Assembly (NCBI RefSeq): GCF_021028975.2
Contig: NC_059428.1
Location: 148,490,001-148,554,000, forward strand
DNA: 64,000 nucleotides
Direction: 5' to 3'
Source of the DNA: Sphaerodactylus townsendi
Lineage: Eukaryota
Under the pieces are notes generated by a model, which did no database searches, had not been told where the DNA came from, and saw only the letters and a list, made by a program, of their open reading frames with translations. The stretch's first letter is position 1; every line of letters starts with the position of its first letter. Of the stretch, positions 9,129 to 45,300 are shown in pieces. Position numbers and translations under genes: made by a program.

Positions 9129-10294
9129 TCAGATCTCGGGCTTGAAAACCCTGTGGAGACGCAAAAGAAAAACCCGTGTCTCTTCAAAAGTCACTGTGAA
9201 CATTTCCTGCCTTTTACCCACACGGGGATTTCTCCTTTTCGGGGTGTGCCGGGCTCCCTGCCCAAGTGCTTGACCCTGCTTTGAGATCTCAGGCCAAACT
9301 CACCTACCTTCGCTCCCCCCAAACCAGACTAGAAACTTTTACACAAGAACCCACCTTTGGGATTCCTCTTTAGCATGCTGGACTGCGGTGTGGGACAGAG
9401 ACGGCCATGCTCTCTAGGATCTGACTCAATCTTAGGCACCCCAGGAAACTGATCTTCTGGCCAGGAGCTCTTTGGTCCCTTGGAGTCCCAGAAGGCTGAA
9501 CAGTCACTGTGCCTGTCTTGTGCACTTTTAAAACATTTGCAGTGAGGTTTCCTGTTCTGCCTCTTGCGCTTGATGGCCTTTGAGCGCTACAGTTTGCTGT
9601 TTATTTCTCCCTCTGCGCCTCTCTGCCAACTGGGATTTCGCATCATGCATTTAACATAGAGACGGGGAAGAGGGAAAATGCTTCCGCTTTTATTAATCTG
9701 TGAAGTACCTTAAGACTCCCCCTTTTCTAAGCCCAGCTATCTCGGGGAAAGAGATCGCTGACTGTGTGCCATTTACCTGCTTTCCCGAGAAGTTCCTGGT
9801 TGTTCTTTCTTCTGTGCCACCCTCTCCGAGAGCCCTGGGAACAGGGTGGCTTTTTGCCGGGATGCCGGAGTTCTTCCTTGGTGCTGAAGGACACCCAGGA
9901 GGGTCCTGACGGCTCGGGTTCTCAGAGAGGCCTGCGGCAGGAAGGCTCTCTTGCCGGCTTTCCTCTTCTCAGGTGGCCCCTGGGACGCCAGGTGAGGTTG
10001 CTTCAGCGCAGTCCACGTTTCAGCCTCTGCTGGGTATTGCTGCAACCTCAGCCACGGAGCAGCCACCCTGTTGGTGGGCAGGTAGGGGCCCGCATCCGGG
10101 CTCTGCTCCAGCTCCTCCGCCAATGCCCGGCGCCACAGGTAAGGGGACCGTCCGACCCCCATCAGGAGCCCTGAAGCTCGCCCCACGGTGTGGTATCTCG
10201 GGCTGGCCACGTGCTTGTACCAAGCCCCCACGGGGCCGAGGACCAAGATCAAGCCCAGGAAGTGGAAGGACCTCCAAGGCCTTAAGATCATCAT
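9129..10294 (-). CDS. NPW: Neuropeptide W precursor (exon 1 10294..9777; candidate short exon 2 9150..9129)
   Basis: ATG at 10294 and a 24-aa signal peptide ([24 protein letters not shown]), then [32 protein letters not shown] (10222..10133), the NPW30 signature. Donor CAG|GTAAAT at 9777/9776. Acceptor tttttcttttgcgtctccacag at 9151 gives ...SRVFKPEI*. Exon 2 is less certain than exon 1. Synteny with ZNF598 supports the call. Confidence 0.93.
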
Positions 10295-10444
10295 GGAAAG
10301 AAGGACAGCAGCAGCTCCTGCAGGCGCTCGAAGCCCAAGATCGAGAGGACGGGAGAAGACCCCCAAACAAACGCAAAAAGTCTGCAGCCAGGCGGCTCGG
10401 GAGACGGCAGAGGGGTCTCTCACTCTCTGCCTCGCTTCCCCATG

Positions 10445-10454
10445 TCTATATAAA
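10445..10454 (-). promoter_or_regulatory. Candidate TATA box of NPW
   Basis: TTTATATAG on the minus strand about 155 nt upstream of the ATG, an isolated AT patch in GC-rich sequence. Confidence 0.45.
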
Positions 10455-11119
10455 CACAGTGAGGGAGGAGCAGCAGCCCTCTTCTCTCTTGCCCCCCCCC
10501 CCCAGCTTTGTGGCTCCGCCTTTTTCCCAGCTGGGGTGTCAAGAGCTGAAATCACCAGCAAGCCAGCAAAGACTCACCCCTACCCCCCCCAACACAGGTC
10601 CCACCCACCCTACATAGTCATAGGCTAAATGTTTTGTGCATTCCCAGTGGCTTCGGGAGCTCCCTGGCATAGGCAGAGATTCCACAGTTGCAGTGCTTTC
10701 CTAGCAACATGTGCTGGGAAGAGATGCCCCTGTTGAATTTCTGCCTGTCGGCCAGCAAGGCTACACAAGCTTCCTTGGAAGACAGCGCAACACACAGCAT
10801 TGAGTGTATTCACCTGAAAGGAATACAGGTGAATGTAAGATGTTCCCTCCCCGAATTTTACACCCAAAAAGATTTTTATTATTGGAGGTAGCTGTCACTT
10901 CTTTGCACATTTAAGAAAACCTCCTTCGCGGGGGGTAGCATATCTGAGGGACAAAAAACAATCTTGCAATTGAGAAAATGTAGTGCCTCACGGAACGGGC
11001 ACTTAAAGATGACAACCTCCAGGACAGATGCAACCATCTGGGAGACTTTTTTTGTGAGCTCCAAAACCACTAAAGGGCATTTGAACTTGGGCAAGCAACA
11101 GGGGAGGTATTAAGGGGGT

Positions 11120-18399: not shown

Positions 18400-19050
18400 C
18401 CACTATTAGAGCGCCGCCGCTTGCCTGTGGCCCGGCGGAACTACAACTCCCAGCGCCCTTTGCGAGGGGACGCGCCGGCCGCACCTGGGCGCCACGCCAC
18501 GAGGCCGGTGGGTGGGCGGGGCGTTCCGGGCAGCGGGCGAGCGAGGCGGGCGGTCCTAGAGCGGCCCGGCGCGGCTCCAGGTGGGCGTCGCCGCTCTAGG
18601 CCGCCGTCTCTGCGCGGTTGCTAGGCGGCGCTCGGGGCCTACTAGGCCGCAGCCGGCGGGGGCCGAGGTCGGGCGGCCATGGCGGCGTCGCCTCCTGCTC
18701 CCCCGGCGTCGCGGGGCTCGGAGGGCCCGAGCTGCGTGCTGTGCTGCGGCGAGCTGGAGGTGGTGGCGCTGGGCCGCTGCGAGCACCCGATCTGCTACCG
18801 CTGCTCCGTGCGGATGAGGGCGCTCTGCGGGGTGCGCTACTGCGCCGTCTGCCGGGAGGAGCTGGCCCAGGTGAGGGGGGGGGGGCGGGGTGTGTGTGTG
18901 TGTGAACAGATCCCGCTCAGCCAGGGGATCCGGGAGGAACCCCGCCCCCGCCGGGAGGTTGGCAACTCCAGGAGGAGGCGGGGGAGGTCCCACGGTTTCG
19001 ATTCCTGCCCGGGGCCTCCTCTGCAGGGCTGGCTGCGGCAAAACGAAACG
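18400..19050 (+). promoter_or_regulatory. CpG-island promoter of ZNF598 with ZNF143/THAP11-type element and GC box
   Basis: Very GC- and CpG-rich. ACTACAACTCCCAGCGCCC at 18440-18458; GGGCGGGG near 18513. Confidence 0.8.
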
Positions 19051-22000
19051 GAAACCCATATACAGGTGTCAAACTCGCGGCCCTCCAGATGTTCATGGAC
19101 TACATCATCCCCTGCCACCGTCATGCTGGCAGGGGGTGATGGGAGCTGTAGTCCACAACATCTGGAGGCCGCGCGTTTGACACCTGAGATAAAGGCAGAC
19201 CCTGAATGGAAGACATAGGCCAGGGATCTGCAACCTGCGGATCTCCAGATGTTCGTGGACTACAGTTCCCATCATCCCCTGCCACCATCATGCTGGCAGG
19301 GGGTGATGGGAGCTGTAGTACACAACATCTGGAGGGGCGCAAGTTGGACACCTGTGCTAGACTGTCAAAGGCAGTCCCTGAATGGAAGACATGGACCCAC
19401 CCATGATCTTATTATTATTCTTGGTGGACATAACTGCCCCAAATCTTCTTTTTGAGGACAGCTCTCGAGGTGGGTATGGGGAGGGGGCTTGCATTTGAGA
19501 AAATGCAAGTTTTTTCCCAGGTATGCCCCTCCCCAAAATAAGATGGGGTGTCTTACATACAGAGTTATGTGCATATATAACATAAGAGGGTTTATCTTGC
19601 ATTCAGGATCGTGTTGCTTTTGAAAAGGTTGAAACCTTTTAAGATGCGGGGTGTGTGCTTTGAATATTGCTGACATAATTCCCATATTATTGTTTCAAAC
19701 TTGCTTGGGAGCCCATATCTCTCTTTGGCCCCTGCCCCAGGTCTGTATTAAGATGCACTCAGGATAGCTAAGGTCTCCCTACGGCTGTCAGCTGAGTAGA
19801 GCCTCCCATGTCCCGAGGCAGTCTACCTCCAAGTGCTGACTGGCGACTGGCGAGGTGGAGAATAACATGCTGCTCGGGTGGGGCTTCTCTTTGTCCAGCA
19901 TTCTTTCCCACCCACCCCTGGCAGCAGGCTATGTATGTATCTGTGCGCCTAGAAAGGAACTTAGCGGGATTATTTCTGAATAAATGCACGCAAGGGCAGG
20001 CTGAGGTTGTGGCCAGGCATCGGTCAGGAAGGATGGCTGGAGGGGAGACAGCCCAGAAAGGGTCAGTATCCCTACTGGGGTCTTGCTGTTCTCTCACCCC
20101 CCACCCTGTTCTCTATTGAACTCAATAGATTGAACTCAATCCCTACTGGAAACATGGACCTGTGGCTCACAACACTTCCTGTGCCTGTCTTGTGTCTGTG
20201 AGCACTCCTGAAACAGGGACTGCTGGGGAAGGCTTGAAACCCGGCCTCTTCTTGTCAGAGCTAAATAGGGCGTTGGCTGCGTGTGCAGAGGCGGAGGCGT
20301 GCCCGGAATTGCCTTGAATCGACACCTTCCGATGTAGGGCAAACTCCTCTCTGCAGCACAAGTGTGTTTGTTTTGCTTTCCCCATTGAGTTCCCTGCATA
20401 ATGAGCGGGGTGCAGTGCGTAGCCCCTGCTCTCTTTCAGGTGACAAAACGGAGTTGGGGATAGGAAAGGTTGCCCCTCTGCTTGGGTGCCTGAAATAGGA
20501 AGCATTTCTTCTGTCGGCTCTCGTGGCCTTTTCAAGCAGCAGCCGGGCAAACGCTTGTTTGGGATGATCTAGGCCAGGGGTAGAGAACCTTTAACACTCA
20601 AAGAGCCATTTGGACCCATTTTCCACGGGAAAAGAAAACACTTGGAGCCACAAATAATTTTTGACATTTAAAATAAAGATAACACTGTATATATTGGGGT
20701 TTTTTACCTTTTACTTTGCTCATTCTGAGAAGCGCATGGATGCGTCCGCCCTGCTGCCTGCAGGGCAGGCCAGGATGGGGCCAGCGGCTCGACCTCACTG
20801 GCCGCCGGGAAAGCACCCGCCCCGCTCCAACGGGGCAGGCGAGAGGGGAAGCCCACGGCGCGGCGCTGCCGGCCGCAGGCAGTTGGTGCACCCGCCCTGC
20901 TGCCTGCAGAGCGGGCAAGGATGGGGCCAGCGGCTCGGCTCGTGGAGCCGCAGTGCAAGAGCAGAAGAGCCGCATGCGGCTCTTGAGCCGCAGGTTCTCT
21001 ACCCCTGATCTAGGCTGATCCTGCATTGAGCAGGGGGTTGGACTAGATGGCCGCTGTGGCGCCTTCCAACTCTGTGGTTCTATCATTCTTCTCCAAGCAA
21101 CTGTGTTCTGGTTCCCCAGCCATCTTCCTTCAACAGAAGATCTCTGTTGTGTGTTTGCGCACAGAGAAAACTGTCAATCCAAACAGAAGTTTGGTGTGTC
21201 GACTACTGTTTTGTGTTTGTGTGCAGAGAAAACTGTCAATCCAAACAGAAGTTTGGTGTGGTCAGCTAATCCCACAAACGTTTCCTCCAGCTTTCGGCCC
21301 TGAACTAACCAGGCCGGTTCTGGCTCCTTTTCTGGCAGTGCTGTGAGGTCAAACTGCTATCCTTTCTCTGATACGATTTCCACTTTTCTGCACTGTGTCT
21401 GAGTGACCACTTCTTTGTGTGAGGAGAGGTGGGAGAAGGAAGGCCTGTGACTTTGGCTGTTGTGTACTGAGTCGTCTCAGCTGCTTCAAATCCACCCTCT
21501 GTTTGAGGAAGCGCTGAAACCAGGTGTGCGTTCCTTCAGCGCACCCTCCTCCTGTCCCCTTTAGCGATGAGCCGGCAAATATAAAGGATGTTCGGTTCAG
21601 AAAATCTCCCGACCGTCGGATTGCCCAACATCTGGGAATTCAGGACAGAGTGCTGATGTGTGAACCCAGCTGCTTCCGGCAGGCGTGCCGACAGGGAAGT
21701 TCCAGCCCGGGCATGCCCAGAAGGTGCCCTTTGCCCTTCTTGGCCTCCGCCTCAAACCACATGATGTCATCCTTGTTCAGGAAGCAAGGGCACTCTGCCC
21801 TTTCCTTATCTGAGTGAAGGTTGGGAAAGCAGGTTGCATGGGGGGCAGTGTGTGTGTGTTCATTCCTGCCTTGCCTGAGTTCCTTTCTCAGTCCAGAGTC
21901 TTCGGTGTGGTGCTCGGGTGTTGCTGTCTTGCAGGAATGCAAGAGGTCACCAGTTGTGGGAGGCCATGGTGCGTTTGTTGTTCAAAACGGGACTTTTTGT

Positions 22001-23748
22001 TCCCGAGTCCAGCAGCAGGAAACTCCAGCTCATGAAACCCTTCTGTGTGTGCGTCTTTTAAACACACACACTGCATTTCCATCAGTGGGTAGCCTGAATC
22101 ATCACACACGCTCGCACACGTCTTCTTTCCAAGGCTGTGACGGTTTCCATCTTTGGTACATAGCAGGGAAGGAGCATTTTTTATTGCATGCAGCGTCCTT
22201 TGCTAACCACACTCGGCATACGAGCGGCAAAGTGTGTGGAAGCAGGTGGTTCAGGATAGCATACTCAGTGGTCATAAAGAGACAGGAAGAAGGAGAGTTT
22301 GGATTTATACCCCACCTTTCTCTCCTGTGAGGAGACAAGCTCCTTTCCCTTCCTCTCCCCACAACAGATCCCTTGTGAGGTAGACAGGGCTGAGAGAGTG
22401 CAGAGAGAACTGTCACTAGTCCACGGTCACCCAGCAGGAATGCAGAAACACATCTGGTTCACCAGATAAGCCTGTGCCACTCAGGTGGAGGAGTGGGGAA
22501 CCAAACCCGGTTCTCCAGATTAGGATCCCCCTGCTCTTAACCACTACACCACGCTGGCTCATCTGACTGGGAGCTAGAAGTGTGTGTGGAGCAGCCCACC
22601 AGAGCAAAGGGCCTGGCCCCTGCTGGTTCAAGGTGGCCCCTGGCGAGCAGGCCCTGGTTGTGGAGCTAACCAAGGCCCCTGCTGTTATAACTAGTCCCCT
22701 TTTGGGTCTCTGGATCAGCTTCTTTGGTTGTGTGTTCCTGCACGGCAGGGGGTTGGACTTGATGGCCCTTGGGGTCTCTTCCAGCTCCATGGTTCTTTGA
22801 TTCTTCTGGCTTCCTGCAGTCTTCCCTCTCCGTCCCCTCCTTGTTTGGGAACCACCAGAGAAGAAATGGCTCTCTGAACAGGAAGGAGACCGTCAGAAAG
22901 AGCAGGAAGGGCTGGAACCTATTGAGCGATGCCGATCGCCTCGTCATCCTTGGCCGCCAGTAACTGTTATCAGCTCAGGGCGTGTGGGGCATTGCCTGCA
23001 AGACCTTTCTGAGCCGCAATGTCCTGCCTCAGCCCTCTTAGTCCGCTGGGCCGCAGCTGTAGCCGATAAAACAGCCTGGAATGTGTTGGATGAGACAGTT
23101 TTGGAAATATTTCGGGAAGGCCCCAGCAAATCCGGAGCCTGCATTTGCTTGGCCTGCTTTTAGGCATCTGGTTTTAGGAACCACACTTTTCTGGTAACAA
23201 GGGGGGATTTCGGTAAGTGCCGGGCCTCAGACCCACAGGCAGGAGAGCACCCCCGTGCTGCGCTCAGTTCAACTGGGGGTTCCCTCCCTCGGTACTTCGG
23301 CTTGCCCCCCTCCCCCCCCCGCTCTTCCTTTGGTGGAAGGCAAGAATTTCCACCGTCTTGCTGCATGACTGACTCGCTCCTTTGGGTGTTTCCCCCCCCT
23401 TCCCATCCAAGTTAAGTGACATCCTCCGTTTATTCTTGGAGCAGGGTGTCACTAGCCAGAGGCTCAAACCAGTGGCGGCTGTTTTGCGTGTGCGGGGCAC
23501 CTTGGGGGGGGGCAGGGGGGAGAACTGCACCTCCCATTAATGCCAGCTGACCTTGTGTGGCACAAGTGCCCGGGGCAGGGGGTGTGGCTGGACCCCCACA
23601 TTTTTTAATTGTTGCAAATGACGGGGATGCCCAGGCCAGCCGCTGCCCTCCCGAAACCCCTGCAGCTCTGGCCACGAAGCGAGATGGAAGAGAATGAGAT
23701 TTGAGGGGGTCAGTCGCTTGATTTGTGTCTGGTTCAGCCTCCCCCCTC

Positions 23749-23797
<49 letters not shown>

Positions 23798-26700
23798 GGC
23801 AGACCTTTGCCTTCCCCTGCGAGGACAGGCAACCGCCTACTTGCCTGGCTGGGGAGCGTTCCCAGCGGAGGCCACTTCTGTCCTCGTGAGCCGCCCTCTC
23901 ACTCCCCTCGCTGTCTCTTCCACAGGTGGTCTTTGGCAGGAAGCTGACGTCCTTTTCGACGATCGCCCTCCATCAACTGCAGCACGAGAAGAAATACGAC
24001 ATTTATTTTACTGATGAAAAAGTTTACGCTCTATATAGGTGAAAACCTCCTTTGGCTGCTGCCCTCGGGGAATCTGGGCCAGGGTTTGGGTTGCAGGAGG
24101 AAAAGCTGGGATTTGCGTTGGACTTCCTTGTGAGCCAGCTCTGTGGCCCACGACTGGTCCGTAGGATTGTAGTGTTTACTCCATTTGGCCTTGTGTGAGC
24201 AGCACCCAGAAGGTGACTCCTGTGTGGTGATTGAACTGGGCCTGTGGTGCCCTAAATGGGAGTTTGTGAGCGTCCTGTGATGTAGACTCGAAGGGGCTCA
24301 CAAACTCTAAGCCAGCCACAAAGCAGGAGGGAAACAGTGCGAAGTTGGAGCTTCAGAGCCCTACCGATGAATAAGCAGCCGCAAAACGTATAAATGGGTG
24401 CACGTTTGCATAATACCCAGGTTCCGGAATACCCGCTTTGCATGATCCAAAGCCCAGCAACTGATTGAGCGTCACGTCCTTCTCCTGGATCGGCACTCAG
24501 GATAGTTTCCCAAAGAAAATAAGATGCAGCTGGCAGGCCAAACATAGGACAGCACAGTCCAGCCACTGGCTGGGTGGGTGGGAGGCCACTCTCCTGGTAT
24601 GCCCCCTTCCAGTGTGGTGTAGTGGTTAAGAGCAGGTGCACTCTAATCTGGGGAACCAGGTTTGATTCCCCGCTCTGCCACTTGAGCTGTGGAGGCTTAT
24701 CTGGGAACTAGATTAGCTTGTGCACTCCCACATATGCCAACTGAGTGACCTTGGGCTAGTCCCAGTTCTTGGGAGCTCTCTCAGCCACACCCACCTCTCA
24801 GGGTGTTTGTTGTGGAGGGGGGGCAGGAGAGAGGAGTTTGTAACCCCCTTTGAATCTCCTTACAGGAGAGAAAGGGGGGATATAAATCCAAACTACTCCT
24901 CTTCTTCCCCTTCCCAGGGAGAATAGAAACATCGCAGCAAAAGTTGCTGAGAAAGGGAAGCCGGATTCTAACAGGGGACTGAAGTTGTGTGTGTGGCCGT
25001 GCCAACCTCCGTCCTCTTTTTCTCTCCCAGGAAACTCTTGCAGCATGAATGCCCGCTGTGCCCGGATGCCAGGCCCTTCGCCACTGTTGTGGAGCTGGAG
25101 CAGCACATGAGGAAGCAGCATGAGCTCTTCTGCTGCAAACTGTGCGTGAAGCACCTGAAGGCAAGTGGCCGGGAGCCTTTCCAGGCGTGGGCCTCCGTCA
25201 CGGGGGCCTCCCGAGTCGTCTGTCCCCCCCGTGTGTCCCCCCCCGGCACTAAGAGGGTTGTCTTCTCTTTCAGATCTTCACCTACGAGCGCAAGTGGTAT
25301 TCGCGCAAGGACCTTGCCCGGCACAGGATCCACGGGGACCCGGACGACACGTCTCACCGGGGACACCCCCTGTGCAAATTTTGTGACGAGCGCTTCTTGG
25401 ACAACGATGAGTTACTGAAGCACTTGCGAACACACCACTATTTCTGCCACTTCTGTGATTCCGAGGGGGCCCAGGAGTATTACAGGTGGGTGGCTGGGAG
25501 AGTCACTTTGGAGAGGGCCATCCCCCGTACGGACATGGGAGGATCAGATTCGGTTCCTGACTGTGCTCAGCTGTCTGTCGAGTGCCAGAATCCCCAGGGT
25601 ACCACTCATGCGCTTTAAACAAATCAAAGAAAATGGCGGGGGTACAAATTGATATCCAGATCTTGTTGAAGAGGAGAGGGAGTCATGGCCAGACCCCAGT
25701 TTCGTGGGGTTTTTTCCAGAAAGGCCAGCAAGGAGCCAGGGGTCCCCAACGTGGCACCATAGCACCTACTGACACCTTTCCTTGTGCCTGACAATTGTAG
25801 CATTATGGGGGGTGGGGGTGTGAGGTGGAGGTTTTGCCCAGCAGGGCTTTTGTCTGACCATGCAGTTTTTTGCTGCCACCGCAGTATAAGGCTCTTTATT
25901 GTGTAAGCTGCGTCAGCCATTTTGTGGCTGGCGCCGCCTCCCACTGCAGCCATTTTGTGACTTCACCCACCGCCATGCTCACAGTCTCCGAAAGGTTGAG
26001 GGCCCTTGGGGTGGAGCCGCCAGAGGCTCTCTGCAGTCAGAATATCTCTGGTTTTAAGCCTGCCATTTTGACACAGCGAGCACCTGTGTCCTTCAAAAAA
26101 AGCTTGCTTTTTCAAATCAGCCAACCCCTCTCTGCCTCCCTCCCCGCACTCTTCTGCCCTTCCTGCAGCGACTACGAGTACCTGCGGGAACATTTCCGTG
26201 AGAAGCATTTCCTCTGCGAAGAAGGCCAGTGCAGCACGGAGCAGTTCACGCACGCCTTCCGGACCGAAATCGACTACAAAGCGCACAAGATGGCCTGCCA
26301 CAGCAAGAACCGGGCGGAGGCCAGGCAGAACCGGCAGATCGACCTGCAGTTCAGCTATGCACCCAGGCACCCGCGGAGGAACGAGAGTACGTGGGCCTGG
26401 GAATTGTAGGGTGGGAGTTAAACCCCTCTGTGTGGGTCGGCCCCTTAGCTCAGAATACGTTCCCCTTGGGGCAAGCTGACCAATCCCCTTCCAGCTGTAG
26501 GATTTTTGCTTTTGGAAGACCGGGAGGAGGAGAAGAAGAAGAGTTTGGATTTAAATCCCCACTTTCTCTCCTGTAAGGAGACTCAAAGGGGCTGACGATC
26601 TCCTTTCCCTCTCCCCCCCCCCAATAAACACCCTGTGAGGTGGGTGGGGCTGAGAGAGCTCCCAAGAGCTGTGACTACCCCAAAATCACCCAGCTGGCGT

Positions 26701-29700
26701 GTGTTGGAGTGCACAAGCTAATCTGGTTCACCAGATAAGCCTCCACAACTCAAGAGGGAGAGCAGGGAATCAAACCCGGTTCTCCAGATTAGAATGCACC
26801 TGCTTTTACCCACTACGTGGCTGGGGTGGGGTTGATTGTCCTTGACGATGTCAGAAAAGCTCAGAAGGCAGAGAAATTAGATTTGGGTTTCTGGAGCCGC
26901 TTCCAAAACGGCCGGTCCCACAGTCTCCCCGGGCGGACTGTTCTCACTGGCACGTGTCACTTCATCTGAGTCCTGCCCTGTCCAGCTCTTGGACTGATTG
27001 TGGCTGCCGTAGTGGGGAGGAAGGAGGGTGGATTGAGGCCACCAACCAGCCGCGTGTCTTCTCCTCCTAGGTGTTGTCGGCGGGGAAGATTACGAAGAAG
27101 TTGACAGGTACAACCGGCACGGGAGAGGAGGCCGGGCGGGACCGCGCAGCGGGCAGCAGAACAGGAGAGGAAGCTGGAGGTATAAGAGGTAAGGAGCAAG
27201 GGGTGTCTCTGCAGGTCAGGAAGCCTCTTGGCAGCGGAGTCCGAGAAGCGGCCTTTGTCGCCCGGCTGGTCAGCTGAACACGCTTGTCTGGCTGTTGTCT
27301 GACTTCGCATGTCCTGCAGTGCCCTCTCCCCTCGCCTTTGCTCATGACTGCTTTGAAGAAGATTTTTTTGGATGTATATCCCCCCCCCCCATTTCTCTCC
27401 TGTGAGGAGACTCAAGGGGGCTTACAAACTCCTTTCCCTTCCTCTCCCCAAAACAGACCCTTCTGAGGCAAGTGGGGCTGGAAGAGTCCTGAGAGAACTG
27501 TGACTAGTCCAAGGTCACCCAGCAGGAATGTAGGAGTGCGGAAATACATCTGGTTCACCAGATAAGCCTCTGCCACTCAGATGGAGGAGTGGGGAATCAA
27601 ATCCGGTTCTCCAGATTAGAACCCACCTGCTCTTAACCACGACACCACGCTGGCTTTGATCCAGAAAGGTGTCACATTAGATAAGGCGAAGGGACTTAGT
27701 TTGCCAGGCTGCAGCCCAGAAGCTGCCTCGCCCCTTCTTCCGGGAGTCCCAGATGCCCTGGCTGCCCCTCTCAGCAACAGGAGGGCGTGCCAGAGAGAGC
27801 ACAGGTGTGGACAGGTAAGGGAGAAAACAGCCCTCGTTTCACCGAGCTTTTCTTTGTTGTGATCGAAACGTCCGCAGGGAGGAAGAAGACCGAGACATCG
27901 CTGCGGCCGTCCGGGCATCAGTAGCCGCCAAACGGCAGGAAGAGAAAAAACGGGGGGAGGAGAAAGAGGATGGGCCCCGGGCCAAAAAGGAGGAGCTGAA
28001 AGATGCGGAGGCGAGCGCCTCAAAGAGGGGGCTGAACCCCCCCTTGGAAGCCCCAGGTAAGCAAGAAGGTCTGCGGCAGGCCTGGTGGGAGGCGGGCACC
28101 TTGTCCCCTGGGAGGATGCTTGCTTTTTCTGCAAGGAAGCACTTTGAGCCGGGCCTGCAACTCTCTTTTCCACCCCAGCGCCCAAAGAAGCGGCGGCAAA
28201 GGCCGTGCTGAGCCAGGAGGATTTCCCCGCCTTCAGCTTGCCTGTAGCTGGCGCCACACAGAGGTGAGTCCTTCTGCTCCGAGCTGCAAAATGCACTGTT
28301 GCTTCATACCCTTGAGGCAGGGGTGGCCAACCTCTGGCACTCCAGGTGTTCACAGACTACAATTCCCATCGGCCATGCTGGCAGGGGCTAATGGGAATTG
28401 TATTTATTTATTTATTATTGGGTTTTGTATACCGCCCTACCCCCAAAGGGCTCTGGGCGGTGCACAACATTGTAGTCCATGAACATCTGGAGCGCCATAG
28501 GTTGGCCACCCCTGGCTAAGGCATAACTTGGACCCCCCCCCCCCCCCCCAAAAAAAAAAATCTGGTAGCTGTGTCCTTCCTTCTGCCAGGACCGGTTTGC
28601 TGTTTGGCTTACAAAAGCCTTGTGAGCGAATGGCACGAACCCTCCTTGCCGATCTGGCCTCCAAATCAAGTTCCTTCCGTAACATTTGAATTGTCACGTG
28701 TGGGAGACTTTCTCGGCAGCTGACGCTCGGTGGGCGTGGTGTGAATTTCTCTTTGCGGCTTCTCTTTTCCTCGCAGCTCTGCCCAGCCGGCTCCGGTCAA
28801 GCTGAAGGATGAAGACTTCCCCAGCCTGTGTTCCTCCACGACCATCCCGGTCCCGTCTACCTTGTCCTTGACATACACGGCGACCGCCAAGAAGACATCC
28901 TTCCAAGAGGAAGACTTCCCTGCCCTGGTGTCCAAAGTCCGGCCAAACAACAAGACTCTGTCGACCCTCTCTTCCGCCTGGAGCAACGGCTCCGGCAAAA
29001 ATGTGGTCAGGGCTGCTGTCCCTCACGCAGCGGCGGTGGCCGGTCAGTCAGCCAGGAAGCTGGGGCCCAGCGGCAGAGGCAGCAAGAAGACCAAGGCCAC
29101 CGGCTCCCTCGACGACGAGGATGACGGTGGGGTCACCAGCCAGGAGATCCGCAGCGCTCCGACGATGGTTGATGTGTCCTCCTTGCTGGTGGCCCCGAAC
29201 GCCCAGACTTTTGTGAAAGTGGGCAAGAAGAAGAAAGTCGGGGCTGAGAAGCAGAGGGCGTCGCCACCCCCTGCACCCCCGCAGCCGGTGCCGTCCCCCA
29301 TCCCTTCTGGAGAGGGTGCCCCAGAGGCCGAGCCCCCAGCAAGTGCCCCCGTGAGCACTTCTGCAGCAGAGAGAGCCGCAGCGGTCATGAACGGTCACTC
29401 GGAAAAGCCTGCCCCGTGCCCAGCTTCCAAGGAGCCGCCCGGCCTGAAGAAGCCCCTTGCGACCAGCCAGCCCCTCTTGCCTCAAGAGGACTTCCCAGCT
29501 CTCGGCAGCTCCCGAACGCCTCCTCCACCAGGTAAGGGGGCCAAGGCCTGTCCTCGCCTGTTTAGAATGTCACCTGCGTTCAGTGGTGCTAGACCAGACC
29601 AGGGGTCCACCCAGTCCAGCAGTATGCCACAGGGAACCCCGCAATTAGGATCAAAGACATTTTGCCTCAGAATCTGGAGTGACCACTGGACTCCTGTGGC

Positions 29701-32067
29701 CTGAGACAATTGTACATCTGTCCTCCCTAAGTCTGTCTGACCCCCTTTTAAGGCCATCGGAGCCAGCAGCTCTCGCAGCTTGTGGCAGTGAGTTCCACAG
29801 GTGTGCAGTCTGACTTCCTTTTGCTTTCAGCCCTAATAATGGCCCTGCTTCAAACCTGGGACTTGGTGCACGCAAAACACGTCCTCTGCCCCCAAGCTGT
29901 GTTGAATTCGGCTGGCCCGTGGTGACCTGAACCACAACCTTTGCAGCAGACGTTCCCTGCCAAAAGAATCACAACTAAACTTCAAGCGGCAACCCCGCTG
30001 CGCTCTGGTATTCACGGCTTGCCTTCCTCCCCAGGTTTCAATCCCCCTGCGTGTGCTTTCTGAACAGTCCGGGCCTCAGCCTGCTGGCTGTGCCTCTCGG
30101 CAAACCACCTCCTGGCTTCACCCCAATTCTCCCTGCCGGAGTCTCGGAACTGGCCCCTGCAAAAGAGTGAGTAGATCCCTCTCGGAAGACAAGCAGCCCT
30201 TGTGGATCCAGGCTCGGGCGGCTCCCACGCAATGAGAAGGGCCAGGACATTTCATTCACCCTCAGAGGGGGGCGCGCGCGCGCACACACACACACACACA
30301 GGAGTGACGGAATAATGCAGGTGTTGCTGAAGTAAGGAGGCAGGTGCAGAGCTGGAGCATGCAGAGCTGCAGCAGGGAATTTCTTTCCTGTGTAGATACT
30401 TAGACTTGGTGGAATTAAAAGTATTTTTAATAAACGCATTTCCTGTAGCACGGTGGCTGTTTCCCCCTTTGTCTAGGGCGCCAGCGGGGGTGGGAGACAG
30501 GGGATGGGAAGCCCCAGGGAGACAGGATGTAGTTCAGAAGACCATACTTAACAGACTCACCTGCACGCACGCGCACACGCGCACACACACACACATATAC
30601 ACCAAGCATCCTCAGGTTAGTTCCTCCACCCACCCCAGGGAACTCTCCAAGGTACTGAAGACCCCCCCCCCCCCCCCTTTCCTCCCCTCCAGGGCCAAGC
30701 CGTGTCTGGGAACCTACTTGATCCTGGAGAACTTCCAGCAGCGGAACACGCAGCTCATCCAGTCGATCAAGGAGTTTCTCCACAACGACGAGTCGCAGTT
30801 CAACGAATTCAAGACCTACTCGGGACAGTTCAGGCAGGTGAGAGCCCCCCCGTCTGTCTCTTGGGGAACCCGGCTGAATCAGCCTCCACGTGGTTTTTTC
30901 CCACCCTTCCCAGAATACTTCTCAGAAGGGGGTAGAGCAGCCAACCCAGGTTAGGAAACTGAGAGGCTGAAAGCCAGAACATGTGACCCCCACTGAGTCA
31001 GCAGACAGGGTAGAAGTGACGATCTCAAGTTGCCCCACCAGCTTAAACTTGGTCCCTTCAGATCGGGCACTCCAGGAAACCCTGTGACAAGCAATAGAGC
31101 TGGCTAGTCTCTTTCACAGAACAGCTTGTATGTTTTGCTCCGATGAACTATTCAGCTCTCCCAGGACCCGGCAGAAACAACCAGAAGAGACGGATTTATA
31201 CCTCCTCTTTCTCTCCTGTAGGAAACTCAAAAGGGCTTCCAAACTCCTTTCCCATCCCCGCCTCACAACAAACACCCTGTGAGGTGGATTGGGCTGAGAG
31301 AGCTCCCAAGAACTGTGACTCGCCCAGCTAGCGTGTGCCAGAGTGCACAAGCTAATCTAGTTCACCAGATAAGCCTCCACACCTCAAGTGGCAGAGCGGG
31401 GAATCAAACCTGGTTGTCCAGATTAGAGTGCACCTGCTCTTAACCACTGCGCCACCCTGGCTCTCCTGACCCCACCCCACCCAGGCGCTTGGGGACCACG
31501 ACGTATTGGAGTTGAGAGGGACTGGTTCTCAAGGGGGTCCCATCTCTGTCCCACAGTGCAGGGGTGCCAATGAGGGAATGTGGGAGGCACTTATCGTTCC
31601 GGCTTCCCACTTCGCCGATCGGCGGAGCAGCCCAAGTGCGCCTCGTCCTTCTCTGAATATCTCACCCCTTTCCTCTTCTCTTTCCTCCCGGCAAGGGTCT
31701 GATTTCCGCCGCTCAGTATTACCGCAGCTGCCAGGACCTCCTGGGGGAGAACTTCCGGAAGATCTTCAACGAACTCCTGGTGCTCCTGCCAGACACGGCC
31801 AAGCAGCAGGAACTGCTGGCCGCCCACACCGACTTGAAGGCCAAGGAGAGGCCCGGCGGCCACAGCGGCTGCCCGCCCTTCAGCAAGTCCAAGAAGAACC
31901 GGAAGAACGCTTGGCAGGCCGACTCATGCCCCGACCTCCTCGACTACTGCGTCTGCCCCCAGTGCCAGCAGGTGCTGACCCCGCAGGATCTGGTGGCCCA
32001 CAAGGCCCTCCACCTGGAGGACGAGGAGTTCCCCTCCCTGCAGGCTATCAGCCGGATCATCAGCTAG
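18679..32067 (+). CDS. ZNF598: E3 ubiquitin-protein ligase ZNF598 (Hel2 orthologue), 12 exons, about 883 aa if the 1-nt frameshift in exon 10 is corrected
   Basis: Exons: 18679-18870 (RING CVLCC..CEHPICYRC..CAVC), 23926-24038, 25031-25160, 25274-25485, 26169-26386, 27071-27188, 27878-28056, 28179-28263, 28777-29531, 30035-30166, 30693-30837, 31696-32067. All junction phases agree except exon 10. C2H2 fingers, PPPGF motifs and the C-terminus DEEFPSLQAISRIIS match ZNF598. Confidence 0.96.
19063..19354. mobile_element. Two tandem palindromic hAT-type MITEs (19063-19186, 19221-19354)
   Basis: CAG...CTG termini; same core as 4611-4764. Confidence 0.8.
20575..21007. mobile_element. Non-autonomous hAT (Charlie-type) element inserted in a CR1 3' end
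   Basis: Perfect 16-bp TIR CAGGGGTAGAGAACCT and perfect 8-bp TSD ATCTAGGC. Confidence 0.88.
21150..21260. repeat. 62-bp tandem duplication
   Basis: CAGAGAAAACTGTCAATCCAAACAGAAGTTTGGTGTG at 21162 and 21224. Confidence 0.85.
22283..22560 (-). mobile_element. tRNA-derived SINE
   Basis: Same family. Confidence 0.8.
23751..23797. repeat. (CCAG)n microsatellite
   Basis: About 11 units; a (CCTG)n tract also lies at 48577-48608. Confidence 0.9.
24608..24908 (+). mobile_element. tRNA-derived SINE
   Basis: Same family. Confidence 0.8.
26524..26820 (-). mobile_element. tRNA-derived SINE
   Basis: Same family. Confidence 0.8.
27355..27655 (-). mobile_element. tRNA-derived SINE
   Basis: Same family. 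Confidence 0.8.
28318..28514. mobile_element. Palindromic hAT-type MITE interrupted by a 66-bp retroposon tail
   Basis: TIR CAGGGGTGGCCAACCT; insert 28403-28468 flanked by an ATTGTA duplication. Confidence 0.8.
31180..31465 (-). mobile_element. tRNA-derived SINE
   Basis: Same family. Confidence 0.8.
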
Positions 32068-32088: not shown

Positions 32089-32878
32089 CCCAGTCTCCGT
32101 CTGACCACTCGCGCGTCTCGGGAGGCGGGGCCAGGGCTGAGTGGGGGGGAGAGAGCAGCCAGAACCACGTGGGCTGAAAGGGGGTGGTTGTGAGGCCAGA
32201 AGACACGTGGCAGGCTCGAGGAGTGGTTAGTGGCTTGGGATTGTTGTGGCGGCTGGTGTGAGCCCGACGGGCTCGCTCAGCCTCCTGGGACTGCAGGGAA
32301 GTGCAGCAGAGTATCTCTGCTGCCTTAACTTGGTTCTGACTTTTGGCACCAATAGGGTGGGTGGGTGGGTGGGTTGGTTGGCCCTTTTTTTTTAGCCTGG
32401 GAAAGTTTCACAGTGGAGGAACCCGTGGAAACAGCGGCTGAGCTGCAGGAGGGAGTCGGAGGGAGGCTGCAAAGAGTGAAGGGATCTGGGAACATGGAGC
32501 TGGACAGAGAAGGAAGGTGCTGCTTTCTGTACCCTTCCATCCTTCTTGTTCTGTCTCCGCACAGGATTGGAACCTCTTCACACGGGGGGGTGGGGGGGCA
32601 AGGGTCCACGATCTGGCTTTCTCGAGCCCTTAACGTAGCCCTCGAGCAGCTCAACAGTTTGTCTGGAGCTTTGGGTTGCTAGCTGTTAATGAGTAGGGAG
32701 GAAGGCAACATGTAGACCTCTGCCCTCTTGGCCAGGCTAGCCCCAGCCAGAGCCCTCCAAAGCAGGCTGGCCCCAGGTGAAGCCCTCTGGCCAAGAAACT
32801 TGCCCACCCCCCGCTCCAAAAGAGGTTTTGCGCCTACCATTTAAACCTGTTTTTCTGTAAAACCCAGATTTGTTTTCT

Positions 32879-32959
32879 GTTAGAACTGCACATAGGGGGA
32901 CACCCCACCCGAAGGCGTTAGAACTGCACATAGGGGGACACCCCACCCCGAAGGCGTTC
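32879..32959. repeat. About 38-bp tandem duplication in the ZNF598 3' region
   Basis: GTTAGAACTGCACATAGGGGGACACCCCACCC(C)GAAGGC twice. Confidence 0.85.
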
Positions 32960-33949
32960 AGCACTTTCCCCGTCTTCTTACTGTAACTGTTTGTTGATGT
33001 AAGTTGGGTTGTTTCCAGTTCTCTGGAGAAATTGGTGCTGGCTGAGAACCACAGGCGGACGGCTCATTAAAACCCGCTCCCCACGCTCACCCTCTCGGTC
33101 TGCCGCCTGATGCCTTGAAGCGTTTTCTCCTGTGGGGGCTTTACTGGAGGGAGGCAGAAGTGTGGGCCTGCTTGCTCCCAGAACGTTCAGTGGCCGCCGT
33201 CTTGACCCCAGTTGTCCGGCATGCATGTCCACCCAAGGGCCGGCGAGAGGCTCTCTCTTTAAAGCCTCGCGTGCAGCGGAGGCTCTGCTAGACAGGGCCC
33301 CCGGAGAGGCCAACTCTTCTGCACCAGTCGACGTATTTAAAACCTTTTGTTAACGTTCTGCTTCTGCTCGGCTGCACAGCTGTGTGCTGCAGGGGTGGCG
33401 TTGTTGCCCGTTTTGGTTTTCAGCCTGGAAGTGGCCGCTTCCTCAAATCTGCACCTAGAAACCTAGCCCTTCAAGAGCAAAGCTGAGTTAGATCTCTCGC
33501 CTGGTACTTTTTTTCCGTGTTCAAGACGGTGTAGGGTCTTTTTGAGGGCGGGGGTATACCTTTGTCCCTTTACCTGGCAGTAAATGCTGCCATCTGGGAG
33601 AGTTTCGCCATTGTAAGGAGCCAGTAGAGAAGGTGGCTGTGAGTTTCTTGTACAAATTTGGATGAAGGGAGTCGGGCAGCCGCTGTTGGGTGGGGGTGGT
33701 CCACGGCCTTCTGCTTTCTCCCCTGAGGCCTGGGTTCCTTTGCTCTCAGACAGCCACCTCAGGCTGTGAGTCTTCCACGCGTCGTCCTCTGCTAAGGTCC
33801 CTGGTCTGGCCAAGCTTTTAAGCAGGCTGGTTGTTTCTTATCTGTTAGAACGGCTCAAACCGTTGTGGTTCCTCCTCCAGTGTCCCTTCTCCCCACCAAA
33901 TCCACAGACAGTATCTACCGAAGGTTCCAGATAGTTTTGTTTTAAAATG

Positions 33950-39332: not shown

Positions 39333-42300
39333 TTAGTATGCCGGCACCTGGTAGCCTTTCGGACTGGTGTTCAGGGTCTCAGCGAACGGCGGACTCTGGT
39401 AGGTTTCTGTGCTTTCCACACCACTCCCTGTGGGGTATCCGGGATACCCCGCGTTGGGGTCAGTGGGAAACTGATCCGTGGCAAAGAGAGACATGTCAGT
39501 CCCCAGGCGGTATCTTTGGAGGGCCTTGATGGTCAGGGCGACCTGGAAGGAAAAAAGGAGAAGGAGATATTGTGACGGATTTGCAACTGCTTGTCTCGAA
39601 ACAGCTGGGCTGCCAACCGAACGGAGTGGCCCTCGTTTTCTGCCCGGCTTCTCGTCTGCCTGCTGCTACTGTGGCCTTTTGCAGGGGAATCAGGGCCCGG
39701 CTTGGGGCGGAGGATGTACAGGAACAGTGGGGGGGGGGGAAACGAGCCCTCCTGCCCAGCATGGCTTACAGAACAGCAGTCTGGGCTAGCTGCTCCCAGG
39801 AAGTGCAAGGAAACCACATCTAATATTCTGGCCGTAGCTTTAGAAATATCCACCCTGTTCCTACTTCAACACCTCTTTCAGAAGAAGAGGAGGAGGAGTT
39901 TGGATCTATACCCTCCTTTTCTCTCCTATAAAGAGACTCAAAGGGACACCACCTTCTCACTTAGACACAGTGTGCAACAGACTTTTCTCTGTGATACGCC
40001 TCTGAAGATGCCAGCCACAGGTGCAGGTGAAATGTTAGGAACAAGATCTACCAGACCACGGCCACACAGCCCGGAAAACCCACCAGAACCAGTTGAATCC
40101 GGCCGTGAAAGCCTTCGACGATACATTAGACTCAAAGGGGCTTACAAACTCCTTTCCCTTCCCCCCTCCCCACAACAAACACCCTTTGAGGTGGGTGGGG
40201 CTGAGAGAACTCCGAAGAACTGTGACTAGCCCAAGGTGACCCAGCTGGCATGTGTTGGAGTGCACAAGCTAATCTGGTTCACCAGATAAGCCTCCACAGC
40301 TCAAGTGGCAAAGGGAGGGAATCAAGCCCGGTTCTCCAGATTAGAGTGCACCTCCTCTTAACCATGACACTACGCTGGCTCTCACACCAGTTAAAGAATA
40401 CCAAGACTTTAGAGCCACATGCAGACAGCTATGGGGTTGAGCGGGTGCATCCCAGAAGACACCTGGGGAAGAATCAGGGTTTGCCTTGGATCAAAATGAT
40501 CCCCCAAGCAATGCTCTTAGCAGAGAGAATCCCTTCCTTCCTCTTGCAGCGCCGAGGCCATTTTGAGAGCTGGACGGGCCAGAATCACTAAGGGAGGGGC
40601 GACCTAAAAGCTCCTCCAGGGGTTGGTCAGAATGTTTCAGACTAACAAAAAGGCAGCCTGCCATTGGTGGGCACAGGTGCAGGCGCCCCTTTGGATCCCC
40701 AGTCCGGGCAACTGATGACGTCAGAGCATTGGGAAAGGGCGGGGCAGCCCACCCTCTGGCAGCGATCCTTCCCTGCACCTCAAAGAGACGGCAGCAGCCA
40801 CGTGACATGATTACAGGAAACATAGAAGAGGGAAGTGATGCTTACCCAGGAGATGATGGAGAAGAAGGAGAAGGCAATGGCTGCCCGGGCTGCGTCCCCC
40901 GCTTGCTTCGCCCCTTTGCTTTGCGGTGTTCGTTGCCACTGGTTAGCCAGGAAGCAGAAAGCCACAAACCACATGAAGGACCAGAAACCTGAAAGGCACC
41001 AAAGCCTGTTAGCACTGCGGGGGGGGGGGGGGGGCTCACGCAACCAGGTTCACCCTGTCCTTTGGGGCATCTGTTCATGCATGGAACTGCTCTGATGCAG
41101 CAGGGCGCCTGCATCTAAAGGGGGAAACGGGACAGGCGGCACTCCTGTGAAAGGCACTGTGTGTTTCCCACACAGAAGGCCCCCGGTCCAATTCATGGCA
41201 TCGCCAGTTAAAGGATCTCAGACGGGGGGGGGGGGGGGGGGCAGAAAAGACCTTTCTCTGTCTAGGACCCTGGACAGCTCCACAGCAGCCGGCATGCAAG
41301 CAACTCCGCTGTGTTTGATTTTATGTCCTATATTTATAGTCTGCATTTCTCACGGTGACTCAGAGCAGACTATTAAGTCCAAGCAGTCCTGCCGCATTGA
41401 TTATTGAGGGCCGGTCTGTCCGACCAAATTGTTGTTTAAGATTTTGCTGTCTGCCTTGAGTCTCGTCAAGGAGGGTGTGTTCTAAAGGAAGCCCGATGAA
41501 ATGAAATGAAAAACCGAAAGGTAAAACTGGACGACAGGGACAAGGGCAGGAAATGACAAGGCTAGTTGAGATGGACAGCAACAGGATGTGATGTCTAATA
41601 AGCAATGTAGTAGCTCTAAGATTACACAGATCTGAACAAGTGTAGATACAGAATGAACACATGAGGCTGAAAGAGGGTGTTGTAGCAGTAGCAAATAATG
41701 CGACAGTATTATAATGTGTACAACAAACAGATCTGGCATCCTACTCAAAGCAGTACAATCCACAGCCCCTTTCCTTTTACAAAACACCTTCCTGAACCAT
41801 TCCTGAACTGAAAACAGGGAGAAAACAGTGTCCAAATCACAGCCTCCAGAAGTGGGTGGAGGTACCGTCTGTCCTCATTAACACACACATTTGAAGGTCA
41901 GGAATCAAAACCTCAGGATCCGCATTTTCTCCCAGGATTCCTTTGAGCTCAGTCAGAACCACACAAATTTGTCCCACAATTGTGGCCCCTTAAGGCTGAT
42001 TGATGCCCTCAGCCAATGCTGCATGCACCCCGCCCCCCTTCCGTGCAAAACCTACCCGAGAAGCCGAGGTCCACGAGAACCGCTCGCTTGCGATCCTTCA
42101 CACTGCTGATCTGCTGGAAATAGAGATCCACCACCAGAAAGATGCAACAGGCCAAGAAGGCAATGAGGCCGATGGTAACACCATAATTACAGGCCCCCTC
42201 GTGGTTGTTGTAGACGCACTTCAGGATGGGAGACTTTTCAGTGTTGACGTAACCCTCGTTAATGATGGAGCCAAACACAATGATGGAGAAAATCTGAAAG

Positions 42301-45300
42301 AGGGAGACAGAGGAATAGGTTGATTTGGAAGAACCATCTCTGGTCAGCAAAAGGGTCCTCAGCGTAGCGTCGTGGTTAAGAGCAGGTGGATTCTAATCTG
42401 GAGAACTGGGTTTGATTCCCCACTCCTCCACCTGAGTGGCGGAGGCTTATCTGGTGAACCAGATGTGTTTCTGCACTCCTACGCTCCTGCTGGGTAACTT
42501 TGGGCTAGTCACAGTTCTCTCAGACCTCTTTCAGCCCCACCTGCCTCACCAGGTGTCTGTTGTGGGGAGAGAAAGGGAAAGGAGCTTGTAGGCCACTTTG
42601 AGAAAGGTGGGATATAAATCCAAACTCTTCTTCAAACTCTTCTTGAAGGAGAGACTATCACCAGCCACAACTCAGAAGGAACCCCACAGAGTAGGTGAAG
42701 GTACAAGCAAGCAGCAGTATAAACAAAGTGGGGGGATGGATTATCCTAACTAAAAAAGGTTACGTTTGGGGGGATTATATTTTTTTAATGATTCAGAGGG
42801 AGAAATATAAACACAGATCGTGACAGACAAGAGTAAAACCTTTTCTTTTTCTATTTTATTTATTTATTTCATACTTCACAGACCGCTCAACCCCCAGAGG
42901 GCTCTGAGCAGTGTACAGGGCCCATAAACAAGGCTGATAAAACATTAAATATAAACATTAAAACCCTTAAAAGTTTACACAGCAGGATCCACATAAAATT
43001 GAGTTGGAGTGACATTATTTATTTATTTATCTATTTATTTATTCTATATTATTTATTTAATCTTATTATTTATTTATCTGAGTAGCTCTTTGGCTACTCA
43101 GCATCCCAGCTCACAAAGCCCCACTGACTGAACTATTGCAATGTCATGGAATGTGCACAAACATTCCAACTTGTCTGTGTGTATGCCCGAGCTAGGAGGC
43201 TTAATGATCTCTGTATTGTTGAAGTCTCTGTACAGCCCAGAAACCACACAGCACCCTTAATGAGCTCGTTTGAACTAACAGTCTGTCTTAGACTCTAGTT
43301 AGGCTAGCAAAAAAGGGCAGGCACGCTTTCCCTTGACATGTTCAATTGCCTTGTGTTTCCAATGAAAGCAGATATGCCCCTGAATGTTCCCAGCACTCAA
43401 TTAGTTTCTGCTATCAACTGCTAGAGTCTCAGTTCTCAGCCAGGTTGAGTGACGTTATCAGAGCCGCTCCTTCATGATCACTCCTTCGTGATCACCCCTT
43501 CATGTTGCCCAGTCTGCACCACCCAGATACTAATCTCTTCCAGTCAAGTGGATGATTCCCGTCCACACCCACACCTCCCGTCCACACCCACACCTGCCGT
43601 TCACAACAAAACACACCCAACTGTAATGACAAGCAGCAAGAACCAGGGAGCCAGCTCAGCACTGTCAGCAAGGAGCCAAAATACGAACACGCTCTTCCTC
43701 TCCCCCCGCCCCCCCCCCCGTCCCTGGGTTTGCCTTCTAATCTCATTCATAAATAATGCAAAAACTAATGTTTTCTTTTTGCTGTTGGATGCCTCTGACA
43801 GCACTTTAAGGAAAACACACAGCCTGGCAGCAGCACGGCGCGATCTGGCAGCCAGACGAATCGAGAAGAAAGCGAATGTGCAGGGTAACGTAGCCAAAGG
43901 GTCCGTGGACCAAGAGCCTCCTTCCCCGCCTGTCTCCAAGCAGCCCCGGTGTCCCCACAGTGAATTGGAAAGCAACATCCAGTGGACCTGGTCGATTTTT
44001 AATGCCTTTGCAAAAATGTTGACCTAAGTACATACTGCATTTTTCCCTCCAAGGAAGATCCTGACAGGCCCAGGGGGAACCAATCAGCTGTACAGCTCAG
44101 GGGCCATTTTGGAAATGGCTGTAGTTTAGTGGAAGCGCCTCCGCGTTGCATGCACGAGATCCCAGGTTGGAACCCCGGCAGCACGTCCAGTTAAAAGGAC
44201 CAGGCAGCAGGTAATGTGAAAGACCTTTGCCCAGCACCTGCTACTAGTCTTCGTAGACAAGACTGACCCAAATCATATGGAGGTAGATCACTGAGACAAT
44301 ATCCCAGGACAGCCAATGAGGTGCGGTGGTTAAGAGCTGTGAACTCTAATCTGGAAAACCGGGTTTGTTTCCCCTCTCCTGCACATGAAGCCTGCTGGGT
44401 GACCTTGGGCCAGTCGCAGTTCTCTCTGAACTCTCTCAGCCCCACCTGCCTCACAAGGGGTCTGTTGTGAGGAGGGGAAGAGAAGGAATTTGTATGCCGC
44501 TTCCTTCGGTTGACAAAAGCAGGGTATAAGTCCAAACTCTCCTCTTTCAAGCCTAGAATACTTCTTTGCAGCAGGATTTCAGCCAGGTGTGTTTATGTGT
44601 AAGCTAGAGAAAGCATGTGTGCATCTCACCAATCCTCCATTTCTCCAGGCTGGCAACCCGAGCTGCAAATTCTCTTTCCCTGCCTCCTCACAATACAAAC
44701 CCTCTCCAAGCACAGGGTGCCTGCAGCTAAGTGGATTTGCCCTGTGGCGGGAAGAGCAGGAGGAGTGTTTTCCTACCCCGTCATTTAGTGCTTCACTTAC
44801 AAGCTAGCTGAGTGCTTTCAAACCTTTTGTCCCAAGTGTCTGCTTTGAGGTGAGGATGTAGGGAAAAGACTTCTGCTTGCTTGTTTAGCCCAGCATACGA
44901 GCAGATACCGAACACATCTGGTAGTCAGGGCTGCTCACACGCCACCTGTCTTGCCAACAAACAGCCAAACCTGATGAAAAAACCAAGCTTATATGCATAT
45001 ATTGTCAGGTGACGCCATCACACTGGATGGCCCAGGCTAGCCCAACCTGGCCGGATCTTAGAAGAAGCTAAGCAGGGTGGGTTTGGGCTAGTACTTTGGT
45101 GGGAGAGGATCAAGGAAGTCAGGGGTTCCTGTGCAGAGCCTGACAAACCATTTGACCTTGCCAAAGGCAAAAGCAACAGGTGCAGAGGAGGGCAGCCAAA
45201 ATGGTCAAAGGTCCGGAGTCCATGCCCTACCAGGAGAGGCTTAGGAATCTGGGAATGTCTAGTTTGGTGAAGAGAAGGTTAAGAGGTGACATGATGGCCA

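What the first reader, a model, noticed from the sequence alone, without database searches (positions are those of the whole stretch)
30035..30166. ZNF598 exon 10 is frameshifted, with a premature TGA in a slippery context
Seen: exon 9 ends in phase 1 (CCA G|gt) and exon 11 needs phase 2, so exon 10 must be 3n+1 nt long, but it is 132 nt. The entry frame reads G-F-N-P-P-A-C-A-F-TGA (30061-30063). The conserved KPPPGF..KE lies in the -1 frame. The nearby AGs (29986, 30067, 30079) do not rescue the frame, and neither does skipping the exon. The result would be a 676-aa, NMD-prone product lacking the C-terminal domain. Most likely cause: a missing base in the C5 run at 30043-30047 (assembly error). 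Alternatives (inference): a real loss-of-function allele, or recoding. In GCT-TTC-TGA the Phe tRNA could slip -1 onto TTT (30057-30059), which is the correct frame, shortly after a polyproline stall motif. That would be an autoregulatory frameshift in a ribosome-collision sensor, analogous to the shifty stops of RF2 and antizyme.
Basis: partly seen in the sequence, partly recalled or inferred. Interest (0 to 1): 0.7.

Follow-up and report, generated by a model that had tools for sequence, protein, structure and literature searches.

The report
False frameshift in gecko ZNF598
The apparent break in this gecko's ribosome quality-control gene ZNF598 is absent from independent sequencing data, which show an intact, in-frame exon, so it is most likely an error in the genome assembly and not a mutation or a recoding signal.

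Summary
Sequencing data do not have it. Of 8 runs laid, the 4 that cover the exon start (X1, X5, X6, X8; two studies, three organism labels) all give a 130-nt, in-frame exon: 5 letters fewer at 30035-30057 and 3 more at 30071-30082. None supports the window's letters there. X1 is letter-identical to the window over the 653 nt before the site. The reads have a longer C run before the acceptor, where the window has C4, and 6 of 8 runs' contigs break at it, so the assembly is likely a garbled, uncorrected consensus over about 55 nt. The error is not one missing C. The TTT needed for the proposed slip has only two T in the reads. 115 of 120 homologues read straight through. Both same-species database proteins bypass the error with odd splice sites. 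Verdict: assembly artefact; ordinary intact ZNF598. The scan had no earlier ZNF598 note.

The parts
18679..18870 (+). ZNF598 exon 1 (coding part, RING finger)
   Evidence: RING_ZNF598 PF25447 on P0001 17-103
23926..28263 (+). ZNF598 exons 2-8 (23926-24038, 25031-25160, 25274-25485, 26169-26386, 27071-27188, 27878-28056, 28179-28263); phases consistent, frames open
28777..29531 (+). ZNF598 exon 9, 755 nt, ends PPPP-G in phase 1
   Evidence: 100% identical to P0001 over 251 aa; X1 and X2 contigs have 0 differences from 29380 on
30029..30034 (+). Exon 10 acceptor; C4-AG in the window, a longer C run before the AG in reads (14 C in X5, at least 15 in X6, 17 in X8, at least 10 shown in X1)
   Evidence: loose ends
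30035..30057 (+). Garbled 5' part of exon 10: 23 letters in the window, 18 in reads (net 5 too many)
   Evidence: loose ends before 30058 in X1, X5, X6, X8; 23 letters counted
30061..30063 (+). TGA that is in frame only in the window; in reads these letters are out of frame, inside Leu-Asn
30071..30082 (+). Second garbled patch: reads have 3 more letters (1 + 2)
   Evidence: table 4, in X1, X5, X6, X8
30083..30166 (+). Sound 3' part of exon 10 (LAVPLGKPPPGF...AKE), donor GA|gtgagt
   Evidence: no differing letter itemised for X1; matches gecko orthologues
30693..30837 (+). ZNF598 exon 11, first part of the PAH domain
   Evidence: PF23202, E 2.2e-08
31696..32067 (+). ZNF598 exon 12, rest of PAH domain, C-terminal C2H2 finger, stop
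   Evidence: PF23202 and PF23208

Best explanation
The window's letters at 30029-30082 differ from every sequencing run that covers them, and those runs show an in-frame 130-nt exon 10, so the frameshift is most likely a local assembly error in an intact ZNF598 gene. Shown: net -5 and +3 letters in four runs, an exon of 3n+1, a longer C run before the acceptor, and read contigs that break at that run. Inferred: a noisy consensus garbled the C run and the G+C-rich 50 nt behind it, and accurate short reads failed to correct it because they break or thin out there. The true gene would give an ordinary protein of about 882 aa with RING, zinc fingers and PAH domain.
For:: X1 has 0 differences over 29380-30032 (653 nt); a single X1 contig then holds acceptor, whole exon and donor, with 18 exon letters where the window has 23 and 3 letters put in at 30071/30081. 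X5 shows the same across two contigs. X6 and X8 (another study) show the same within single contigs; X9 (a third study) shows an open L-L-N-S-P-P-P-P-P-G before 30083 (read by eye from 30 loose letters); 18+109+3 = 130 nt, which gives 54 residues between the exon 9 Gly and ENF, the same as P0002 and P0004; a 133-nt exon would give 55. The read-derived start, G-F-N-S-A-V-L-L-N-S by eye, matches gecko orthologues (FNSVALLNS, FNSVVLLNS), while the window matches in no frame. Contigs of 6 of 8 runs end at 30027-30032. The site is 62% G+C. One copy in G000. 115 of 120 homologues are continuous.
Against: Only contigs were available, not raw reads, and contigs drop rare variants (tool note). 4 of 8 runs do not give the exon length (X2, X3, X4 have no cover at the exon start; X9 lacks the acceptor). 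It is not known whether any run is from the assembled animal. The sequencing chemistry behind G000 was not examined, so the cause of the error is inferred. The substitutions beside the 3 added letters were counted by the tool but not itemised.
Confidence: 0.96

Rival explanations
1. A real loss-of-function allele carried by the assembled animal: a complex mutation rewrote about 55 nt, giving a 676-aa product without the PAH domain and last zinc finger, predicted to be degraded by nonsense-mediated decay.
For: The stop lies 248 nt before the last junction. Contigs cannot show a rare or second allele. The assembled animal may not be among the runs.
Against: It needs at least five separate small indels and a shortened C run within 55 nt, beside 653 nt without a difference from X1. 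No run of 8 carries it. G000 holds no second copy.
Confidence: 0.03
2. The window is right and splicing rescues the frame through cryptic sites, as in the database models: exon 9 extended by 46 nt to a donor at 29577, or a 91-nt extra exon at about 29831-29921, joined to the acceptor at 30067.
For: P0001 (887 aa) and P0121 (902 aa) are built this way.
Against: The two models disagree with each other, and their inserted peptides match none of the 8 other proteins aligned. Both keep window-specific residues (PGLSLLA) that reads do not support. This is the known behaviour of annotation around a false indel (PMC9516821, passage on PCDH17).
Confidence: 0.005
3. Programmed -1 frameshift: tRNA-Phe slips from TTC to TTT at a shifty TGA after a polyproline stall, making ZNF598 regulate its own synthesis.
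For: In the window a -1 slip at 30058 does enter the right frame. The upstream PPPPG is real and conserved. A modest fold follows the stop (z -1.75, 12 of 200 shuffles as good).
Against: Reads have two T, not three, and the TGA is out of frame. No X-XXY-YYZ heptamer lies in exon 10 or the last 102 nt of exon 9. The folded stretch includes the garbled patch. 115 of 120 homologues, all five other geckos among them, are continuous, and none has an X. RF2 and antizyme shift +1, not -1 (recalled).
Confidence: 0.005

Closest known systems
False gene losses from assembly errors (frameshift class), PMC9516821 (passages seen)
   Same: False indels in a G+C-rich coding exon, detected by laying independent reads; annotation compensates with non-biological splicing (their PCDH17 example).
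   Different: There the fix was 1-2 bp false introns; here the models use cryptic donors or an extra exon. They used raw read pile-ups; I had only contigs.
Vertebrate ZNF598 E3 ligase (Pfam PF25447, PF23202, PF23208, PF23230)
   Same: Same domains, same exon 9/10 peptide, 75-88% aligned identity of P0001 to seven other squamates; neighbours NPW, a MARVEL gene and an Erv1/Alr gene fit the recalled GFER-SYNGR3-ZNF598-NPW order.
   Different: No real difference found; the break is only in the assembled letters.
Autoregulatory shifty stops of RF2 (prfB) and antizyme
   Same: The window's letters mimic a stop codon next to a slippery Phe codon in a gene of translation control.
   Different: Those are conserved across many species and shift +1 (recalled; prfB abstract start seen). 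Here the signal is absent from reads and from relatives.

Membership tests
Programmed ribosomal frameshift (autoregulatory shifty stop) | The interrupted frame is real in the organism's DNA | tested here: not met
   4 of 4 runs that give the exon length show 130 nt in frame
Programmed ribosomal frameshift (autoregulatory shifty stop) | Break and shift site conserved in relatives | tested here: not met
   115 of 120 homologues continuous; three organism labels lack the site
Programmed ribosomal frameshift (-1 type) | X-XXY-YYZ slippery heptamer | tested here: not met
   None in 29430-29531 or 30035-30166; the site reads TGCTTTC
Programmed ribosomal frameshift (-1 type) | Stimulatory RNA structure just downstream | tested here: inconclusive
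   z -1.75, 12 of 200 shuffles; the stretch includes garbled letters; pseudoknots not modelled
Programmed ribosomal frameshift | Trans-frame product shown by reporter, ribosome profiling or peptides | not testable with these tools
   No such data available here
Assembly-error false frameshift | Independent sequencing of the locus disagrees with the assembly and restores the frame | tested here: met
   X1, X5, X6, X8
Assembly-error false frameshift | Error-prone context (homopolymer, high G+C, loss of short-read continuity) | tested here: met
   C run of 14 or more in X5, X6, X8; 62% G+C; contigs of 6 of 8 runs end at 30027-30032
Assembly-error false frameshift | Raw reads of the assembled individual disagree with the assembly | not testable with these tools
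   Only contigs were served, and the runs are coded
ZNF598 orthologue | RING_ZNF598, C2H2 fingers, PAH_ZNF598, C-terminal zf_C2H2_ZNF598 | tested here: met
   All above the curated cut-off except PF23230 (25.7 against 27 bits)
ZNF598 orthologue | Best hits are ZNF598; single copy | tested here: met

The most novel reading that the evidence does not exclude
The assembled gecko really carries this rewritten exon, and ribosomes slip -1 at the Phe-stop site so that the collision sensor ZNF598 controls its own synthesis.
Probability: 0.005. Interest if true: 0.85.

Novelty: not a real feature. Interest (0 to 1): 0.04.

Why it matters
Biologically it does not: the gene is most likely intact. Practically, the two database proteins for this species (P0001, P0121) have a wrong stretch of roughly 20-35 residues at the exon 9/10 joint and should not be used there for comparative work. 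The case also warns that broken genes behind long C or G runs in this genome need a read check. A self-regulating frameshift in ZNF598 would have been a real discovery, but the signal is not in the reads.

Tried and rejected
1) One missing C in the C5 run (133-nt exon): rejected, reads give 130 nt. 2) Other acceptors with the 29531 donor: of 37 AGs scanned, those giving an open 3n+1 exon are only 30141 (25 nt) and 30165 (1 nt), both dropping the conserved KPPPGF. 3) Exon skipping: stops at 676 aa. 4) A second, intact copy in G000: one match only. 5) RNA evidence: no RNA holder listed. 6) X2, X3 and X4 have no cover of the exon start; this was not used for or against. 7) A first motif count matched only 91 of 120 and a second 108 of 120 because the patterns were too strict; the loosest gave 115 of 120. 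8) Slippery-pattern search in L001 found no match in or near exon 10. 9) Literature: searches for ZNF598 + frameshift (15 of 186 listed) and ZNF598/autoregulation/recoding/programmed frameshifting (10 of 30 listed) showed no title or abstract start on recoding of ZNF598's own mRNA; a term search of review PMC13510032 found no 'autoregul' and 'frameshift' only in a reference. This is not an exhaustive search. One search was a listing only and was not used. 10) Earlier scan notes on ZNF598: none.

Full report
What the window shows. The gene is ZNF598 of a gecko: exon 9 is 100% identical to P0001, named E3 ubiquitin-protein ligase ZNF598 of Sphaerodactylus townsendi. Twelve coding exons from 18679 to 32067 have AG/GT ends (GC at intron 3) and consistent phases up to exon 9, which ends in phase 1. 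Exon 10 at 30035-30166 is 132 nt, exon 11 is open only in phase 2, and the spliced frame stops at TGA 30061-30063 after 676 aa, 248 nt before the last junction. Skipping exon 10 also stops after 676 aa. Acceptors 29986, 30067 and 30079 give 3n exons. The lost part would hold the PAH domain and the last zinc finger. G000 holds one copy.

What sequencing runs show. Fifteen runs were listed; 8 were laid, all as contigs. X1 (organism A) has no difference from the window over 29380-30032, X2 none over 29380-30027, X3 none over 29960-30032, so organism A is the window's species or cannot be told from it here. A second X1 contig lies on 30058-30260 and carries 42 more letters in front: a C run, the AG, and 18 exon letters where the window has 23. 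It also has 1 and 2 letters put in at 30071 and 30081. The exon in that one contig is 18+109+3 = 130 nt, 3n+1. X5 (organism C, same study) gives the same result across two contigs. X6 and X8 (organism D, another study) give it within single contigs. X9 (organism E, a third study) shows an open frame before 30083 but not the acceptor. X2, X3 and X4 do not cover the exon start. So 4 of 8 runs measure the exon, all 4 give 130 nt, and 0 of 8 carry the window's letters at 30033-30057. The tool also counted 6 to 7 differing letters per contig that it did not itemise; some may be the inserted letters themselves.

What the true exon reads. By eye, the read letters give G-F-N-S-A-V-L-L-N-S, in line with FNSVALLNS (P0002) and FNSVVLLNS (P0004). 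A 130-nt exon gives 54 residues between the exon 9 Gly and ENF, as in P0002 and P0004; the other three geckos have 52. The whole protein would be 882 aa. In the reads the stretch before TGA has two T, not three, so the TTT codon for the proposed slip does not exist and the TGA is out of frame.

How the error likely arose (inferred). The window has C4 before the acceptor; X5 has 14 C, X6 at least 15, X8 17, X1 at least 10 shown. Contigs of 6 of 8 runs end at 30027-30032, at this run, and the following 66 nt are 62% G+C. At least five small indels within about 50 nt, beside 653 nt with none, look like a noisy consensus that short reads could not correct. I did not examine how G000 was sequenced. 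False indels in G+C-rich exons, and gene models that bend round them, are described in PMC9516821 (passages seen; supplements not seen).

Relatives. Of 230 hits, 120 were listed. 115 of 120 have a continuous PPG-F...PPPG-F/D across the exon 9/10 joint, and none of the 121 proteins held has an X. The five misses are P0001 itself and four bird models: P0053 lacks the later part of the exon 10 peptide, P0107 lacks the joint, and for P0109 and P0112 I printed only the last 200 residues. Annotation pipelines can patch frames silently, so this evidence is weaker than the reads. P0007 and P0012 are full-length frames on contigs of 3329 and 2957 nt, probably spliced transcripts, and both are continuous.

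Database models of this species. P0001 extends exon 9 by 46 nt to a donor at 29577 and joins it to 30067; P0121 inserts a 91-nt exon at about 29831-29921 before 30067. They disagree with each other and with the 8 other proteins aligned, and both carry window-specific residues. They are most likely annotation work-arounds.

Recoding tested. No X-XXY-YYZ heptamer lies in exon 10 or the end of exon 9. The downstream fold is weak (z -1.75) and includes garbled letters. The signal is not conserved. Searches (listings, abstract starts and term passages only) showed nothing on recoding of ZNF598's own mRNA. That RF2 and antizyme shift +1 is recalled.

Limits. Contigs drop rare variants and the assembled animal may not be among the runs, so a private allele is not formally excluded (0.03). 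X1 may be the source of the assembly; if so it speaks directly against the window's letters, but is then not an independent animal. An earlier scan note (e1-9516502) also blames sequence errors for a broken-looking gene in this genome; I did not test it and it adds no weight.

Verdict. Assembly artefact in an intact ZNF598, confidence 0.96; interest 0.04; not a real feature.

Noticed in passing
window 25161-25162: ZNF598 intron 3 has a GC donor (AAG|gcaagt). The Lerista model P0029 has 16 extra residues at this joint, which suggests a GC donor there too.
   Followed up: no
window 25274-26386 (exons 4-5): P0001 reads HLRTH, EGQC and HKMA where the 8 other species aligned have HLRRD, EGRC and HKTA. 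These may be real lineage changes or further base errors; no reads were laid there.
   Followed up: no
window 30032-30034, run X6: X6 shows AAG at the exon 10 acceptor where X8 of the same organism label shows CAG: a variant or a contig error.
   Followed up: no
window 9776-10573 (-), 42012-42392 (-), 59583-60110 (-): Frames matching neuropeptide B/W (PF15180), MARVEL (PF01284) and Erv1/Alr (PF04777); they fit the recalled vertebrate order NPW, ZNF598, SYNGR3, GFER.
   Followed up: partly
window 28533-28549, 30662-30677 and others: 22 runs of 9 or more C or G lie in the window; one of 16 C sits just before the exon 11 acceptor, whose exon is intact.
   Followed up: no
window 29587-29621 and 29775-29807: Two short intron 9 stretches attract contigs from elsewhere in the genome, many at the first: fragments of dispersed repeats.
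   Followed up: no
window 32877-32960: A direct duplication of about 40 nt in the region after the ZNF598 stop (seen).
   Followed up: no
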